A stretch of 43,725 nt of DNA from an uncultured bacterium. GTDB lineage: Bacteria; CAIJMQ01. Shown here in pieces: positions 30,001 to 42,000 of the stretch. The stretch's first letter is position 1; every line of letters begins with the position of its first letter. The position numbers are program-made. The stretch lies in assembly GCA_964573245.1 (NCBI GenBank), contig CAZNJA010000004.1, positions 1-43,725 on the forward strand, written 5' to 3'.

Positions 30001-33000
30001 ATTAATAGCCAAAAGAATAATTCAAAAACGCAGGGAAAAAAGAATAAAAACAACTTTTGAATTGGCTGAAATAGCCAGCAAAGCACTCGGCAAGGGCAAA
30101 GGCAAAATAGACCCTGCCACAAGAACGTTCCAAGCGTTCAGAATAGCAGTAAATAAAGAAATAAACTCAATAGAAAAAATATTACCTAAAATTCCCGATT
30201 TACTCGCGGATAAAGGCAGAGTTTGTGCGATATCTTATCACTCCCTGGAAGACAGATTAGTTAAAAGAGCTTTTAAGGCGGAAAAAGAAAAAGGGACATT
30301 GCAAATTATCACAAAAAAACCCATTCGAACTACATACGATGAAATTATGAAAAACTCCCGCTCGCGCTCTGCTAAATTGCGCGCGGCAGAAAAAATAGGA
30401 TTTATACAGGATTAAAAAATGAGAAAGATAACAAAGGGACGAGAAAATATTAAAACAAACAGCAAAACCTTTTTTGCGATTTTCTTTGTTTTAATAGCTG
30501 CCCTGTTTATTGTTCATTTGCGTGTGCTTATAAATAATTTGCAATACGAAATTTCCGGGAAAAATAAAACGGAAAAAGAATTATTAAAGGAAAGAGAAAT
30601 TTTAAAGGAAAAATTGGAATTTTTAAAATCGCCTTCAAGAATAGAAAAAGAGGCCATACGTAACGGCATGACTTTCCCAAAAGAATGGCAGATTAAGACA
30701 ATTATAGTTAAGAAAAAATGATTATAAAAAGAAAACTTTATTTCGTTATTATCTTTCTTATATGTATGCTCTTTTCGCTTGTTTTAAGGTTGGTGACTTT
30801 ACAGATAGTTAATGGCAATGATTTCGTCATGGATGCGGAAAACCTACACAACACAACCATTGAAATACAAGCCGAGAGAGGAAGAATTTTCGATAGGAAT
30901 GGCAATCCCCTAGCGTTGAATGTTCCTTCCTACGAAATTTTTTGGAGGAGAATTTCCGATTCTATTGATAAAGAGAAATTAAAAGAACTTTTCACACTTG
31001 CCGGGCAAGATTGGGCAAGTGTAGAGAAAAAAATTGATAGTGGAGCAAATTTCATATATTTGGACCGTTTCGCTGATGAAAGCTTTCTAGCCCTAATAAA
31101 GAAAAATATAACAAAGGGTATAGAATGGAAAGAGCATAAAAACAGAATTTATCCCTGCGGAGAGTTAGCTGCTAATGTTATAGGGTTTGTTGGGACAGAC
31201 CAAGGATTAGAAGGCATTGAAAGAGATTACGAAGATTACCTCAAGGGGAAATCCGGATTTAAATTGGCGCAAAGAGACGCAAAAGGAAATGTTCTCTATA
31301 CTTTAGACGGCAAAGTATCCGCTCTTAAGCCAGGTTGTGATATTTATCTTACAATAGACAGGATTATCCAGCATATTGCGGAAAAAGAAATTAGTAAAAT
31401 ACAACAAAAGTTTAACCCTGCATCGGTTGTTGCTATAGTTTTGGAGCCAAGGACAGGGAAAATTCTTGCGTTGGCAAATTATCCTTCTTATGACCCGAAC
31501 AGATTTAAAGAATTTTCTACGTCTGATTTTAGAAATAGAGCCATAACCGACCTTTACGAGCCAGGCTCCACATTTAAAATATTTACCGCTTCCGCTGCTT
31601 TGGAGGAGAAAATAGTTACTCCCAACGACCAAATATTTTGCGAGAATGGCAGTTACGAACTAGCCGGACATACTATTCACGATGTGCATCCCTATGGATG
31701 GCTAACTTTTAAAGAAGCGCTGTTATATTCCTCAAATATAGCTTTTACCAAGGTTGGCCAGAAAATTGGCGAAAAAGAATTATACCGATATCTCAAGAAA
31801 TTCGGTTTTGGAGAAGAAACGCAAATAGAACTGGGAGGGGAAGCCAGCGGGTTATTGCGCAATGTGAATCAATGGTCGAAGTTGTCCATAGGCGCTATTC
31901 CTTATGGACAAGAAATAGGCACTACTCCATTACAGATAGCCTCGGCGGCGGCCGCGGTAGCTAACGACGGAGTGCTTTTAAAACCGTTTTTGATTAATGA
32001 AATTGTCAACGACAAAGGTGTAGTCGTTAAGAAAAATTTCCCAACTGTGAAAAGAAAGGTGATTTCCAATCATTCTGCAAAGCTTTTAACAAGTCTGCTT
32101 GTTGATGTTGTAGAAAACGGAACTGGGAAAGCGGCGGCCATAAATGGCTACAGCATAGCCGGAAAAACAGGGACATCCCAAAAATATATTCCAGGGAAGG
32201 GATATTCTCAAACAAAATTTGTGTCTTCCTTTGTCGGGTATGCTCCGGCCAATAATCCTCAAGTGCTGGTTTTATTAGTGATAGATGAACCGCAAGGCGC
32301 CTATTATGGCGGACAAGTAGCTGCTCCTTCCTTCAAAAATATAATGAAAAAAACCTTAAGATATTTAGAAATTCCGCCTGACAAAATGCGTTTAGAAATA
32401 GCAGGCCTGTAATCGATTTATGGAAATGACACCCCGGCATTTGCTTAGGACTTTATTTACCCCTTTCATTATCATTCCTAAGTGGAATTGAAGGTTGGAT
32501 TTATGCAACTCAGACAACTTCTAAAAGATATACCTGTCGAAAGAATAGTAGGCAATAATGATATTATCATCAAAGGAATAGCCGCCCATTCGGCGGAAGC
32601 AAAACAAGGATATCTATTTGTGGCTTTAAGAGGTAAATCTCATGATGGCCATGATTTTGTGGCGGAGGTCATCAAAAAAGGTGCTGCTGCAGTCGTGATA
32701 GACGAAAAATTCGCATCTCCCGTCAATGGCACAACCTATATTTACGTTCGGGATACACAGGAAGTTCTTGCCAAAATAGCAAATAATTTTTATGACAATC
32801 CCACACAGGATATAAAAATCATAGGGATTACCGGCACCAACGGGAAAACCACGACTTCCTATCTTATAGATGTTATCCTACAATCGCAGGGTCTGGTTAC
32901 AGGAAGAATAGGGACAATAAATTATTGTTGGGGAGCGAGAGTCATTCCGTCTTCTCACACCACTCCTCCTCCTATTTTCCTAAGCGAGATCTTCAACAAA

Positions 33001-39000: not shown

Positions 39001-42000
39001 TGGAAAGTCTCATTAAAAATAAAAAGGGAGATTGATATGAAAAAAGAGAAAATAACGGCTCCTGAAAGAAGAAAATATGTTAGGTTTGCTTATCCCTTTT
39101 TCATCCGTGTCAGAAGAAAAGGAGGGAAAGAAGATTTTTCCAGGCAAGAACAACCGATTATAACTTTCAAAGAATTCAAAGAAGACAACATAAGCATATC
39201 TAAAAACATATCCGTGCAGGGAATTTGCTTTACCACCAGCAAGAATTATCCTGTTAACACTCTTGTTGCCTTGGAAATTTTCAGCCCCACAAGAAAAATG
39301 CCGTTCAATATGTTGGCAAAAGTGAAATGGAAAAACAAAAGGGTTGTGGGGAAATCCACAGAACACGTGTATGATGTAGGTGTTGAATTTCTTAAAATAG
39401 ATGCGGACGGCGAATTTCACGATTTGCTCGAACAATTGGTAAATAGCAAATTGGAAAAGGTGTTATTGGATTAGAAGGCAAAGCAATGTTTATCTCGTTT
39501 TTGCGGATGATTCTTATACAGCTACGAAGAGGAACCTTTGAAAAATAAAATAGTCATAGCAGTAGGTTCCACGGGCGGACATTTTTTCCCAGGGTTGGCA
39601 GTAGCACGTTATTTAAGAGAAAAATACAAAGTGGAATCTATGTTTTGGGGACCCATCAAACTGAATTTCCAAAATATACTTCAAGAAGAAAAATTTTCCT
39701 TCGTTAACCTCTCTATTCCTTCCACTTCAGGCAATATAATTACGGTGGTCTTCTCTTATTATCCCTCAATGTTCAAAGCAGTCATTCAATCGTTTTTTTT
39801 TCTCTGCCATGCAAGACCAAAACTTGTGATGGGAACGGGGAGTTTCGGAAGTTTTCCTGCTTGTATATCCGCTTATTTGTTAAGAATTCCGTTACTCCTG
39901 CACGAACAAAACATAGTATCGGGAAAAGCAAATAAATTTTTGGCTAAATTTGCTCAAAAGATATTTCTTGCGTTTCCAAATTCTTCCTTAATTTCGAAAA
40001 AAAGTTTAGTGGTCGGCAACCCCGTTGAAAAATTCAAGCCGAATCCGGACAAACAAACCTGCTATAAAAATTTTGGGTTAGATAAAAACAAAAAAACCTT
40101 ACTTGTATTCGGAGGGTCTCAAGGCGCAGTTTCATTGAATACTTGGACTGTGGATGTATTGGAAAAATTGTCGGATTTTGAAAATTGGCAAGTAATCCAT
40201 ATTACAGGAGAAGCGGATTACTGGAGGGTTAGAGAGAAATATATAAAATTAGGAACATCTTCGGTTGTTCTGCCCTTTTTATTCCCAATGGATTGCGCTT
40301 ATTTAATTTCGGACTTGGCAATCACAAGAGGCGGAGCACTCTCGCTTTCGGAACTTTCTTTCTGGGGAGTCCCTTCGTTAATCGTGCCTTATGTTTACGC
40401 AAAAGATAACCACCAGAAATATAACGCTCTTTACTTCCAAGAAAAAAGTGGGGCATATCTTTTAAAAAAAACGGATATCGAAAAAAGTCGCGTCCCCAAA
40501 ATTTTACAAGAATTGATAAACAGTCCCGACAAACTAAAAAAGACAAGCGAAAACATAAAAAAGGTAATGCCCAATGATGCTTTGGAAAAGATATGTGAGG
40601 AAATTTATAAATATATAAAATCCAATGACTAGACAACAATTACAAGACCCTGTTCATTTCATAGGTATTGGCGGTTGCTCTATGAGTGGCATTGCTTCTG
40701 TTCTTTTCAAAAAAGGATACGAAGTCCAAGGAACGGATTTACAGGAGAGCTTATACTCAAAACAACTTGCGAAAACAGGAATAAAAGTTTATTTCGGGCA
40801 CACTAAAGAAAATATTAAGAACGCTAAAACAATAGTTTATTCAAGCGCTATTTCCCCTGATAACAAAGAAATCTTGTTTGCAAAGCAAAATAGACTAAAG
40901 ATTTTTTCAAGGGGACAAATGCTGGCAAATTTAATGAACAACAGCATTGGGATTACTGTCTGTGGCAGTCACGGAAAAACAACTACATCTTCGTTGATAT
41001 CTTTTCTTTTTTTTCGGGCGGGGTTTGAGCCCAGTTTTATAGTCGGCGGGAATATAAACAATCTTGATGCAAATGCGCGTTTCGGCTCAAGTAAATTATT
41101 CATCGCCGAAGCCGATGAATCCGACGGTTCATTTTTGCTGTTGTCGCCTTCGTTTGAAGTGATTACCAACATAGAAGAGGAGCATCTGGATTACTATAAA
41201 AATTTCCAAAATCTTAAAGACGCTTTTTTAAAGCACATCCATAATATAAAAAAAGGCGGTTTTCTTATCGCGGGCGGAGACGACAAAGTTATACAAAATA
41301 TTCTGACGACGCATAAAAAAAATATCAGAGCGCAGATTATAACTTACGGGCTGGAACCATCCAATTTGATTTACGCGTCCAATGTCATTGCCGACAACGA
41401 AAAAACATATTTTGACGTTACTTTTAAAGGAAAAAATCTTGGCAACATCAAAATGCCCTTACTGGGAATTCATAATGTAAAAAATGTTCTCGCGTGTATT
41501 GCTGTCGGCTTGTTAAATGGAATCAAGTGGGAAAATATAGCGGAAATATTGCCGGAATTTCAAGGCGTAAGCAGAAGATTCCAGGTAAAAGGCAGATATA
41601 ATAATGCTTTGATAATAGACGATTACGCGCATCATCCGACGGAAATAAAAGCTTCTCTTAAAATGGCGGATGAATTAAACCCTTTGAGGAAAATAGCCGT
41701 ATTCCAGCCGCACAGATATACCAGAACAAGGCAATTGGCTAAGGAATTTGCCGAAGTGCTGCGAAATGTGGAAATTCCCATCCTTATCCCGATATATGAA
41801 GCAAGTGAAAGACCTATTAAAGGCGTGAATTCCCGGCTTATTTGCGAACATTTGGAAAAATTCGGGGTATCGGCTTTGCACTTTGAAAAAAAAGAAGAGG
41901 CAGTCGCGTATCTTAAAAAAACAATTAAACCCAAAGATGTTGTTTTGACTATAGGCGCAGGAGATGTCTATAAAATAGGAGAGATGCTTTTAAAAAGCTA

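What a model noticed while it worked through the whole genome (the two positions that open the first line are those of the whole stretch)
30718..39016. Cell wall from a single FtsW-FtsI pair: no class A PBP, RodA, PBP2 or MreC
The genome has the full Mur pathway, MurJ and the dcw cluster, but its only peptidoglycan polymerase is one SEDS protein (FtsW) with one class B PBP (FtsI). Class A PBPs and the elongasome (RodA, PBP2, MreC) are absent across the phylum, although MreB is kept. The wall is apparently made by the divisome alone in a lineage with broad biosynthetic capacity.
Evidence so far: Transglycosylase PF00912 0 of 9. One SEDS gene per genome in 7 relatives (G007's hits are pieces of one gene; none in G004). 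One transpeptidase over the cut-off in each of 5 tested (G007 in two pieces). MreC 0 of 5. G000 tables show one FtsW, one PBP and one MreB. An Omnitrophota-labelled genome (G014) has two SEDS genes; class A PBP was also absent in 5 of 5 Omnitrophota-labelled genomes.
(Added by a program. Inside this text positions count along the whole contig: contig position 1 is position 1 of the stretch shown here. "Call 12" and the like, gene names such as g00115 and contig names such as C1 are that model's own, and its searches are not shown. The text may have been shortened before it was handed on; [...] marks where a part breaks off. The agent that wrote the report below was given it as the finding of a first reader that could run no searches.)

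Follow-up and report, generated by a model that had tools for sequence, protein, structure and literature searches.

The report
One wall synthase, degenerate FtsZ
These uncultured bacteria (Ca. Ratteibacteria) seem to build their cell wall with the division enzyme pair alone, which is already known from a few other bacteria, but their only FtsZ, the protein that normally steers that pair, has lost its key catalytic residue in every genome examined and its GTP-binding motif in some.

Summary
The gene inventory is confirmed and extended. In all 9 genomes of the phylum (close homologues are labelled Ca. Ratteibacteria) PF00912 and MreC were not found. There is one FtsI in 9 of 9, one FtsW in 8 of 9, and a stand-alone mreB in 8 of 9.

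This genotype is not new. FtsW+FtsI only is tabulated for Francisella, Buchnera and Sphaerochaeta. Most Sphaerochaeta also keep mreB without rodA, mreC, PBP2 or aPBP.

What I did not find in print is the state of the cytoskeleton:
- The single FtsZ lacks the T7 catalytic aspartate (E. coli D212) in 9 of 9 genomes, and the GGGTGTG motif in 4 of 9.
- FtsA's phosphate-2 loop and MreB's lateral-interface valine are also changed.
- ftsZ and mreB remain under purifying selection.
- Related lineages either keep a canonical FtsZ (13 of 13 genomes) or, as in Omnitrophota, lack it (0 of 41; published).

Best reading: septal-only wall synthesis on a static, non-treadmilling FtsZ-FtsA scaffold, probably in round cells. 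No biochemistry or imaging supports this yet.

The parts
28961..29431 (+). mraZ
   Evidence: PF02381
29465..30415 (+). mraW/rsmH
   Evidence: PF01795
30419..30721 (+). ftsL
   Evidence: weak DivIC/FtsL_2 hits below cut-off, position between mraW and ftsI
30718..32412 (+). ftsI, the only class B PBP found; SxxK, SxN and KTG motifs intact
   Evidence: PF00905 and PF03717; alignment of 5; scores 259 bits with E. coli FtsI against 142 with PBP2; only PBP hit in the genome
32482..34008 (+). murE
   Evidence: Mur ligase domains, dcw position
33980..35383 (+). murF
   Evidence: Mur ligase domains, dcw position
35468..36565 (+). mraY
   Evidence: PF00953 and PF10555
36562..37935 (+). murD
   Evidence: PF21799 and Mur ligase domains
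37928..39016 (+). ftsW, the only SEDS protein found (likely start ATG 37928, overlapping the murD stop; the open frame begins at 37703)
   Evidence: PF01098; FtsW clade; D297 equivalent kept
39037..39474 (+). stand-alone PilZ-domain gene inserted between ftsW and murG, family f1 only
   Evidence: PF07238; present in G000-G003, absent at this place in G005, G007, G008
39538..40632 (+). murG
   Evidence: PF03033 and PF04101
40625..42001 (+). murC, last gene of the cluster. murB-ftsQ-ftsA-ftsZ lie on contig C15 (3714-7887) and mreB on C24 (3126-4154), outside the window
7375..8529 (-). membrane-anchored TPR-LysM-YkuD L,D-transpeptidase, a candidate second cross-linker
   Evidence: PF03734 and PF01476; one copy in 5 of 5 genomes; His and SNGC Cys kept in 5 of 5

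Best explanation
Ratteibacteria are diderm bacteria that lost class A PBPs and then dismantled the Rod complex. Lipid II (MurA-G, MraY, MurJ) is polymerised only by FtsW and cross-linked by FtsI, probably helped by one L,D-transpeptidase. All wall is therefore made at the division site, and the cells are probably round or pleomorphic, like Sphaerochaeta. Their single FtsZ is no longer a treadmilling GTPase. In family f1 it can probably still bind GTP but lacks the catalytic aspartate (natural D212A). In families f2 and f3 the GTP-binding motif and part of the T3 loop are gone as well. FtsZ and a co-modified FtsA are kept by selection as a static or slowly turning-over midcell scaffold that recruits FtsK, FtsQLB and FtsWI. 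The orphan MreB, with a remodelled lateral interface, does a job outside the elongasome, such as organising precursor synthesis or type IV pili. SHOWN: gene inventory, motif changes, fold in predicted models, purifying selection. INFERRED: loss of GTPase activity (about 0.8), loss of GTP binding in f2/f3 (about 0.7), round cells (about 0.6), scaffold role, MreB's job.
For: Inventory. One FtsZ per genome in 9 of 9, in a murB-ftsQ-ftsA-ftsZ-glyA operon where the contig shows it. G000 A215 aligns with B. subtilis D213 (2vam) and E. coli D212. This position is D in 0 of 29 Ratteibacteria-type rows (25 distinct sequences; A, T or S) and in 251 of 256 other FtsZ domains. It is D in 12 of 12 genomes of two related phyla and in G177. 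GGGTGTG is replaced in G005-G008, and the C-terminal D-x-P-x-F-[LI]-R peptide is altered in 9 of 9. FtsA phosphate-2 GGG reads GAH, GSH or GEG in 8 of 8, and the D242/R300 equivalents are changed in 8 of 8. D212A and D212G essentially abolish Z-ring dynamics in E. coli, yet strains carrying them at the chromosomal locus still make septal wall (10.1101/077610, passages). B. subtilis D213A still allows a dense, stable ring and constriction in a merodiploid (PMC8079713, passages). dN/dS is 0.04-0.09 for ftsZ and about 0.02 for mreB. The AlphaFold model of G000 FtsZ matches solved FtsZ at 1.4-1.6 A. FtsK is present in 5 of 5. Sphaerochaeta and Bullifex, with the same polymerase set, are coccoid, and peptidoglycan was detected in B. 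porci (PMC7738495, passages).
Against: I know of no cultured member, image or assay; everything is inferred from motifs. E. coli D212G keeps about 14% GTPase activity, so slow turnover is possible, and f1 keeps N207 and D209. In B. subtilis treadmilling is needed to condense the ring and start constriction, so a static ring needs a replacement that I did not identify. In f2/f3 the FtsA D242/R300 positions and the FtsZ tail are so changed that FtsZ may not be tethered at all, which favours the MreB rival. MurG is about as divergent between the families (34-38%) as FtsZ (30-36%), so part of the divergence is general drift. G104 and G105 also change N207 while keeping D212. SepF, ZapA and FtsN were not searched.
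Confidence: 0.45

Rival explanations
1. Chlamydia-like hand-over. MreB is now the dynamic organiser that positions FtsW-FtsI (through FtsK or Mur enzymes), and FtsZ-FtsA are a conserved but secondary relic. The phylum would preserve stages on the road to the FtsZ loss seen in Omnitrophota, Chlamydiota and Planctomycetota.
For: MreB is the most conserved of 7 proteins compared across the families (69-71% identity against 30-36% for FtsZ), although its usual partners are missing. In f2/f3, where FtsZ has lost the GTP motif, MreB keeps the catalytic E143. Chlamydial MreB with RodZ can replace FtsZ activity in E. coli (PMC7029139, abstract). Omnitrophota lie in the same clade of a dcw-protein tree (support 1.0), have no FtsZ in 41 of 41 genomes searched (published), and keep a divergent ftsA with no ftsZ behind it in G189 and G445.
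Against: Chlamydial MreB needed RodZ in that test, and RodZ was not found here (a weak test, since G084 was also negative). Chlamydia keeps RodA, and Omnitrophota keep the whole mre operon. In f1 MreB itself carries E143Q (11 of 15 rows). ftsZ is still under strong purifying selection. Sphaerochaeta keep an orphan mreB in some species and lose it in others, so an orphan MreB need not be essential. Ratteibacteria are not sister to Omnitrophota in the quick tree (weak supports 0.87 and 0.60).
Confidence: 0.25
2. Ordinary septal-only growth as in Francisella or Sphaerochaeta. The FtsZ substitutions are compensated (residual hydrolysis by D209, or a partner supplying the acid in trans), division is otherwise canonical, and MreB serves type IV pili.
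For: f1 FtsZ keeps GGGTGTG, N207, D209 and the fold. ftsQ, ftsA, ftsL, ftsB, ftsK and ftsEX are present. mreB is followed directly by a PilT-like ATPase gene in G005-G008, and G000 has three close PilT paralogues.
Against: It does not explain f2/f3, where the GTP motif, part of T3 and the T7 loop are all gone. D212 is nearly invariant elsewhere (251 of 256). pilT sits behind ftsZ in G104, G105 and the G096 group, so its place beside mreB may be a rearrangement.
Confidence: 0.17
3. A second, unrecognised glycan polymerase (too divergent for these profiles, or non-homologous) works with MreB, so the wall is not made by FtsW-FtsI alone.
For: MreB is strongly conserved without known partners. Only G000 was searched without filters.
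Against: SEDS and GT51 domains are normally easy to detect (92 of 92 and 90 of 92 outgroup genomes). Nothing better than E 0.16 appeared in G000. No gene is conserved beside mreB across the families.
Confidence: 0.07
4. Artefact of incomplete bins: the mre operon and aPBP genes lie on unassembled contigs.
For: Bins are 64-96% complete. G004 lacks even ftsW and G001 lacks mreB. G105, in another phylum, lacks the whole mreB-mreC-rodA block, which may be such a gap.
Against: The same genes are missing in 9 of 9, including G002 in about 10 contigs. mreB is present with foreign neighbours on both sides. The FtsZ, FtsA and MreB substitutions are positive sequence evidence seen in many independent assemblies.
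Confidence: 0.02

Closest known systems
Sphaerochaeta spp. and Bullifex porci (Wylensek 2020, PMC7738495; Caro-Quintero 2012, PMC3372971; Atwal 2021 Table S1C)
   Same: murA-G, mraY and murJ present; no rodA, mreC, PBP2 or class A PBP; FtsW and FtsI only; mreB kept in all but S. coccoides and B. porci.
   Different: Cultured coccoid spirochaetes of another phylum. The state of their FtsZ motifs was not tested here, and the passages read report no defect.
'Peptidoglycan-intermediate' (PGi) bacteria (Otten 2018, PMC5814848; Atwal 2021, PMC8406291), above all Francisella
   Same: Lipid II pathway, SEDS and class B PBP without class A PBP. ftsW=1, ftsI=1, rodA=0, mrdA=0, aPBP=0 in 39 Francisella, 1 Allofrancisella and 6 Buchnera rows.
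   Different: PGi species studied are host-associated, and most keep RodA. The table is based on KEGG orthologue numbers and contains false negatives (it scores Deinococcus without aPBP, while the D. radiodurans control rings for PF00912). It has no columns for MreB or FtsZ.
FtsZ-less PVC division (Chlamydiota MreB-RodZ; Planctomycetota; Omnitrophota, Pende 2021, PMC8178401)
   Same: No class A PBP in Chlamydiae or in the 2 Omnitrophota-group genomes tested; MreB and FtsK kept; FtsA remodelled as in Omnitrophota.
   Different: The mirror image: those groups lost ftsZ, and Chlamydia and Omnitrophota kept RodA. Ratteibacteria kept a degenerate ftsZ and lost RodA, PBP2, MreC and MreD.
Engineered GTPase-deficient FtsZ mutants (E. 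coli D212A/G, B. subtilis D213A)
   Same: Same residue and, in family f1, the same substitution.
   Different: Laboratory alleles with misshapen septa. Here the change is fixed in the only ftsZ of a whole phylum and goes further in f2/f3.

Membership tests
PGi bacteria (Otten 2018, Atwal 2021) | Lipid II genes murA-murG and mraY | tested here: met
   murC-G and mraY in the window, murB, murA
PGi bacteria (Otten 2018, Atwal 2021) | At least one SEDS and one class B PBP | tested here: met
PGi bacteria (Otten 2018, Atwal 2021) | No class A PBP | tested here: met
   PF00912 0 of 9; unfiltered profile search of G000
PGi bacteria (Otten 2018, Atwal 2021) | Low-abundance wall, irregular shape, host-associated life | not testable with these tools
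   no cells or lifestyle data
FtsW (SEDS, divisome) | Groups with dcw FtsW, not RodA; putative catalytic D297 | tested here: met
   7 sequences inside the FtsW clade, RodA split off at SH-aLRT 100 (quick tree); D297 in 7 of 7 (residue from PMC8765783)
FtsI (class B PBP) | dcw position, PBP dimer and transpeptidase domains, SxxK/SxN/KTG | tested here: met
Rod complex (elongasome) | MreC, MreD, PBP2, RodA | tested here: not met
   MreC 0 of 9; single SEDS and single PBP; MreD searched in G000 only
Rod complex (elongasome) | RodZ | tested here: inconclusive
   HTH_25 hits in 3 of 5 are small soluble regulators; RodZ_C 0 of 4, but also 0 in G084, which has the mre operon
Rod complex (elongasome) | MreB with the antiparallel double-filament contact V121 (C. 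crescentus V118) | tested here: not met
   A in 7 of 7 genomes; V in 22 of 22 mre-operon MreBs and in 104 of 105 other rows, the exception carrying the Ratteibacteria signature; role of V121 from PMC4051119, where the tested change was V to E, not V to A
Canonical FtsZ | FtsZ fold and position after ftsQ-ftsA | tested here: met
   the G008 model is confident (pLDDT 84) but was not fold-searched
Canonical FtsZ | Tubulin signature GGGTG[TS]G | tested here: inconclusive
   met in 5 of 5 f1 genomes, not met in 4 of 4 f2/f3 genomes
Canonical FtsZ | T7 loop N-x-D-x-x-D with catalytic D212 | tested here: not met
   D212 absent in 9 of 9
Canonical FtsZ | C-terminal peptide D-x-P-x-F-[LI]-R | tested here: not met
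   altered in 9 of 9, present in 12 of 12 genomes of two related phyla
Canonical FtsZ | GTP hydrolysis and treadmilling | not testable with these tools
   needs purified protein
Chlamydial MreB-RodZ division | ftsZ absent | tested here: not met
   one ftsZ in 9 of 9
Chlamydial MreB-RodZ division | MreB at the division site directing wall synthesis | not testable with these tools
   needs imaging
Sphaerochaeta-type minimal wall | No rodA, mreC, PBP2 or aPBP; Mur pathway and murJ kept; mreB optional | tested here: met
   against the passage
Sphaerochaeta-type minimal wall | Coccoid or pleomorphic cells | not testable with these tools
   no images

The most novel reading that the evidence does not exclude
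Ratteibacteria divide without FtsZ treadmilling and, in families f2/f3, with an FtsZ that binds no GTP. One FtsW-FtsI pair builds the whole wall under an orphan MreB and/or a nucleotide-independent FtsZ-FtsA scaffold. The phylum would then preserve a graded natural series (canonical FtsZ in relatives, D212A in f1, GTP site lost in f2/f3, gene lost in Omnitrophota) showing how PVC bacteria could give up FtsZ.
Probability: 0.35. Interest if true: 0.8.

Novelty: new variant of a known kind. Interest (0 to 1): 0.55.

Why it matters
The single-synthase wall is a further independent case of a known minimal state, here fixed across a whole phylum. The FtsZ result matters more. How Chlamydiota, Planctomycetota and Omnitrophota came to lose FtsZ is an open question, and I found no intermediate in the papers read. 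These genomes supply soluble proteins that can be expressed and assayed: a natural D212A FtsZ, FtsZs without the GTP motif, their co-changed FtsAs and an orphan MreB. They make it directly testable whether a bacterium can divide with a non-treadmilling or nucleotide-free FtsZ, and what MreB does without the Rod complex.

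Tried and rejected
Complex prediction of G000 FtsZ with MreB: no answer, score 0.00 in two runs; not used as evidence either way.

HTH_25 hits in G005, G007 and G008 as RodZ: rejected, they are 113-126-aa soluble regulators.

Other MreB-family hits as second MreBs: rejected. In G000 they are FtsA and PilM and a 648-aa frame that I took for DnaK by its length.

ftsZ as a decaying pseudogene: rejected by dN/dS 0.04-0.09 (simple counting method, dS near saturation).

My early idea that MreB keeps every nucleotide motif: wrong for f1, which has E143Q. G084 has the same Q inside an intact mre operon, so the change need not disable it.

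G105 as a second single-SEDS lineage: unresolved, since mreB is missing too.

A genome-contig scan with the single FtsI found nothing. The alignment scan gave only distant phyla. A DNA search of ftsI against E. coli found nothing. Cluster look-up of 10 FtsZ representatives gave no taxon names, so the five non-D rows among the 256 (four proteins, two of them with two FtsZ domains) are unplaced.

I could not obtain a paper for the role of FtsA D242/R300 or for the divergent Nitrosopumilus FtsZ (a wrong id returned an unrelated paper). Both rest on recall. No Sphaerochaeta or Francisella genome was available by handle, so their FtsZ and MreB were not compared.

Full report
ORIGIN. The window is contig C4 of G000, a 1.46-Mb bin in 110 contigs, 93% complete. 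Its phylum holds 9 genomes in three families: f1 = G000-G004, f2 = G005, f3 = G006-G008. A protein 85% identical to G000 FtsZ is labelled Candidatus Ratteibacteria. A preprint places that phylum in the PVC supergroup (10.1101/2023.11.21.568195, passages). G000 has lpxA-D and bamA, so it is a diderm.

THE LOCUS. 28961-42001 reads mraZ, mraW, ftsL, ftsI, murE, murF, mraY, murD, ftsW, a PilZ gene, murG, murC. murB-ftsQ-ftsA-ftsZ-glyA form a separate operon on C15, and mreB lies on C24. FtsI keeps SxxK, SxN and KTG in 5 of 5 aligned. FtsW keeps the putative catalytic D297 in 7 of 7 (PMC8765783, passages). It nests among dcw FtsWs, with RodA split off at SH-aLRT 100 (quick tree of 56 rows; the careful search did not finish). 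An L,D-transpeptidase with a membrane anchor, TPR, LysM and YkuD domains lies at 7375-8529 and occurs once in 5 of 5 genomes tested.

THE ABSENCES. PF00912 was found in 0 of 9 at E<=1 and MreC in 0 of 9. One SEDS gene was found in 8 of 9, and one transpeptidase over the cut-off in 9 of 9. An unfiltered search of 23,972 six-frame ORFs of G000, with profiles built here for MreC, MreD, PBP2, RodA and aPBP, gave significant hits only to the window's FtsI and FtsW. The other eight genomes were searched only through the filtered tool. E. coli queries found murA, murI, alr, ftsB, ftsEX, an NlpD-like and an AmiB-like protein, and pieces of ddl, murJ and uppS at contig ends. They found nothing for rodZ, mltG, dacA, rlpA, minC, minE, flgB or flgC; single queries are insensitive and also missed ftsL and ftsQ.

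BASELINE. In 92 genomes of other families PF00912 occurred in 90 and MreC over the cut-off in 82. All 9 with a single SEDS gene had PF00912, and the 2 without PF00912 had two or three SEDS hits and MreC. mreB is flanked by ymdB/panD and a rhomboid gene in f1, and by an M48 peptidase and a PilT-like gene in f2/f3. The operon was therefore broken up, not lost with a contig.

PRIOR ART FOR THE INVENTORY. Atwal 2021 (PMC8406291; I read parts 1-2 of 5 of the text, passages, the text of Fig. S1, and parts 1, 65 and 66 of 73 of Table S1) counts 988 of 4,985 genomes without aPBP. Table S1C lists ftsW=1, ftsI=1, rodA=0, mrdA=0 for 39 Francisella, 1 Allofrancisella, 6 Buchnera and 3 Sphaerochaeta rows, among others. 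The table over-calls absence for some groups such as Deinococcus. Wylensek 2020 (PMC7738495, passages; its figures not seen) reports that Sphaerochaeta spp. and Bullifex lack rodA, mreC and PBP1a/2/C, keep murA-G, murJ and mraY, are coccoid, and that only B. porci and S. coccoides lack mreB. Caro-Quintero 2012 (PMC3372971, passages) and Otten 2018 (PMC5814848, passages) give the background. Rivas-Marin 2016 (PMC5147048, passages) notes a patchy MreC in PVC. V. spinosum and P. limnophila each have two SEDS genes and mreC (PMC12283558, passages).

Each genome has one ftsZ (9 of 9; one extra weak 59-position hit in G008 was not examined). In f1 the T7 loop reads N-M-D-M-A-A-F. G000 A215 aligns with B. 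subtilis D213, the equivalent of E. coli D212 (PMC8079713, passages; alignment). In f2/f3 the loop has drifted further, GGGTGTG is replaced, and 10-20 residues around T3 are deleted. The D212 position is D in 0 of 29 Ratteibacteria-type rows (25 distinct sequences) and in 251 of 256 other FtsZ domains. Those 256 are the best hits to the Ratteibacteria profile and include many Alphaproteobacteria; they are not a random sample. One listed row (P0024, a fragment) did not pass the length filter. Twelve genomes of two related phyla (that of G084, whose FtsZ homologues are labelled NPL-UPA2, and that of G096) and G177 all keep D212 and the GTP motif. The twelve also keep the C-terminal D-x-P-x-F-[LI]-R peptide, which is altered in all 9 Ratteibacteria. 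G104 and G105 change N207. D212A/G nearly abolish treadmilling in E. coli but leave total septal synthesis unchanged (10.1101/077610, passages). AlphaFold models are confident (pLDDT 84 for G000 and G008), and the G000 model superposes on solved FtsZ at 1.4-1.6 A. dN/dS is 0.04-0.09 in four pairs, so this is a conserved, altered protein.

FtsA AND MreB. FtsA's phosphate-2 GGG reads GAH, GSH or GEG in 8 of 8. The D242/R300 equivalents read E/K in f1, R/E in G005, M/G in G006-G007 and F/Y in G008, against D/R in 10 of 10 other genomes that have a canonical FtsZ, besides E. coli. That these residues bind the FtsZ tail is my recall and an earlier AI note, not a paper read here. MreB is the most conserved protein compared: 69-71% between families, against GlyA 63-64, FtsW 48-52, FtsI 44-46, MurG 34-38, FtsZ 30-36 and FtsA 27-32; its dN/dS is about 0.02. 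It forms one clade among mre-operon MreBs, and its nearest named homologues outside the phylum are mostly labelled Omnitrophota. It has A at E. coli V121 in 7 of 7 genomes, against V in 22 of 22 mre-operon MreBs, and A or T at P115. V121 makes the contact between the two protofilaments that rod shape needs (PMC4051119, passages; tested there as V to E). In f1 the catalytic E143 is Q (11 of 15 top rows; E in 105 of 105 other rows; Q also in G084).

RELATIVES. PF00912 was not found in 6 of 6 genomes of G084's phylum, 2 of 2 of G096's, or 2 of 2 of the Omnitrophota group, but was present in G177 and G329. Most of these have two SEDS genes. The phylum of G189 (MreB 89% identical to an Omnitrophota-labelled protein) had no FtsZ over the cut-off in 41 of 41 genomes at least 90% complete. 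That cut-off would also miss an f3-like FtsZ (G008 scores 21 bits), but in G189 and G445 ftsA is followed by unrelated genes. The absence is published (Pende 2021, PMC8178401, passages). A FastTree of seven dcw proteins joins Omnitrophota, Ratteibacteria, G177/G329 and the G084 and G096 phyla (support 1.0) but does not make Ratteibacteria sister to Omnitrophota (0.87, 0.60; two Planctomycetota rows dropped for having one gene). The degeneration therefore looks parallel to the loss, not ancestral to it.

HOW IT MOST LIKELY WORKS. Lipid II is flipped by MurJ, polymerised by FtsW and cross-linked by FtsI, with 3-3 links or outer-membrane tethering from the L,D-transpeptidase (inference from the families). 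With no Rod complex or aPBP, new wall comes from the septum, which predicts round cells. FtsZ and FtsA most likely form a static scaffold (0.45). The main rival gives MreB the guiding role, as in Chlamydia (0.25; PMC7029139, abstract and outline). A compensated, ordinary FtsZ (0.17), a hidden polymerase (0.07) and bin gaps (0.02) follow.

NOVELTY. The inventory is a new member of a known kind. A degenerate sole FtsZ across a phylum was not found in print by these searches: Ratteibacteria (9 papers listed, passages read in 2), Omnitroph/FtsZ/MreB/peptidoglycan, FtsZ/T7 loop/degenerate and FtsZ/GGGTG/divergent; hits of these searches not cited above were seen as listings only. It was also absent from this scan's notes. 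The library lacks most subscription journals, and supplements of the two bioRxiv preprints could not be seen and may hold gene tables for this phylum. From recall only: a sole FtsZ without the signature motif is known in Nitrosopumilus, which divides by Cdv, and GTPase-poor FtsZ paralogues occur in Rhizobiales. Verdict: new variant of a known kind, interest 0.55.

Noticed in passing
window 39037-39474 (+); L062:15238-15669; L079:11600-12529; L087:2754-3185: A stand-alone PilZ gene with R-x-x-x-R and N-x-S-x-x-G motifs (motifs recalled) sits inside the dcw operon between ftsW and murG in family f1, with two copies in G001. It is not there in G005, G007 or G008. Possible c-di-GMP input to division, or a passenger.
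   Followed up: partly
window 7375-8529 (-); L200-L203: The TPR-LysM-YkuD L,D-transpeptidase is next to accA in 5 of 5 genomes. In G005, G007 and G008 the gene upstream looks like a Ser/Thr kinase by its sequence (not scanned).
   Followed up: partly
G189:C9 (L281:1913-2974) and G445:C10 (L299:4551-5738): Omnitrophota-group dcw clusters end in a divergent ftsA with no ftsZ; FtsZ over the cut-off in 0 of 41 genomes. Already published at phylum level.
   Followed up: yes
L056:8811-9902, L057:6404-7489, L058:7322-8407, L076:591-1676; L215, L216, L217-L221: A PilT-like ATPase gene follows mreB in f2/f3 but follows ftsZ in G104, G105 and the G096 group.
   Followed up: partly
G105 (L215, L223): One SEDS gene, and no PF00912, MreC or MreB, in a 92% complete bin of about 30 contigs: a second elongasome loss or a missing contig.
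   Followed up: partly
L072:1460-2644 (G005 ftsA): The FtsA D242/R300 equivalents are charge-swapped (R/E), which suggests a co-varying pair and not random decay.
   Followed up: no
P0122, P0124, P0125, P0126, P0216: Proteins of 731-840 aa with two FtsZ domains; in P0125 both domains, and in P0216 one, lack the D212 equivalent. Source organisms unnamed.
   Followed up: no
window 24407-28813 (+): Homocysteine S-methyltransferase and pterin-binding domains as separate genes (split MetH-like), followed by a FecCD-type ABC importer, directly upstream of mraZ in G000; the same ORF sizes lie upstream in G001-G004.
   Followed up: no
window 18863-21919 (+): A 1018-aa protein with a CBM_4_9 domain and a weak alpha/beta-hydrolase match, inserted between rplT and pheS.
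   Followed up: no
window 10820-12145 (-): Fusion of an OMPdecase/HUMPS-family domain with an RraA-like aldolase domain (hexulose-6-phosphate synthase type, by recall).
   Followed up: no
L280:2462-12625 (G189): A 3388-aa open frame downstream of the dcw remnant in an Omnitrophota-group genome.
   Followed up: no
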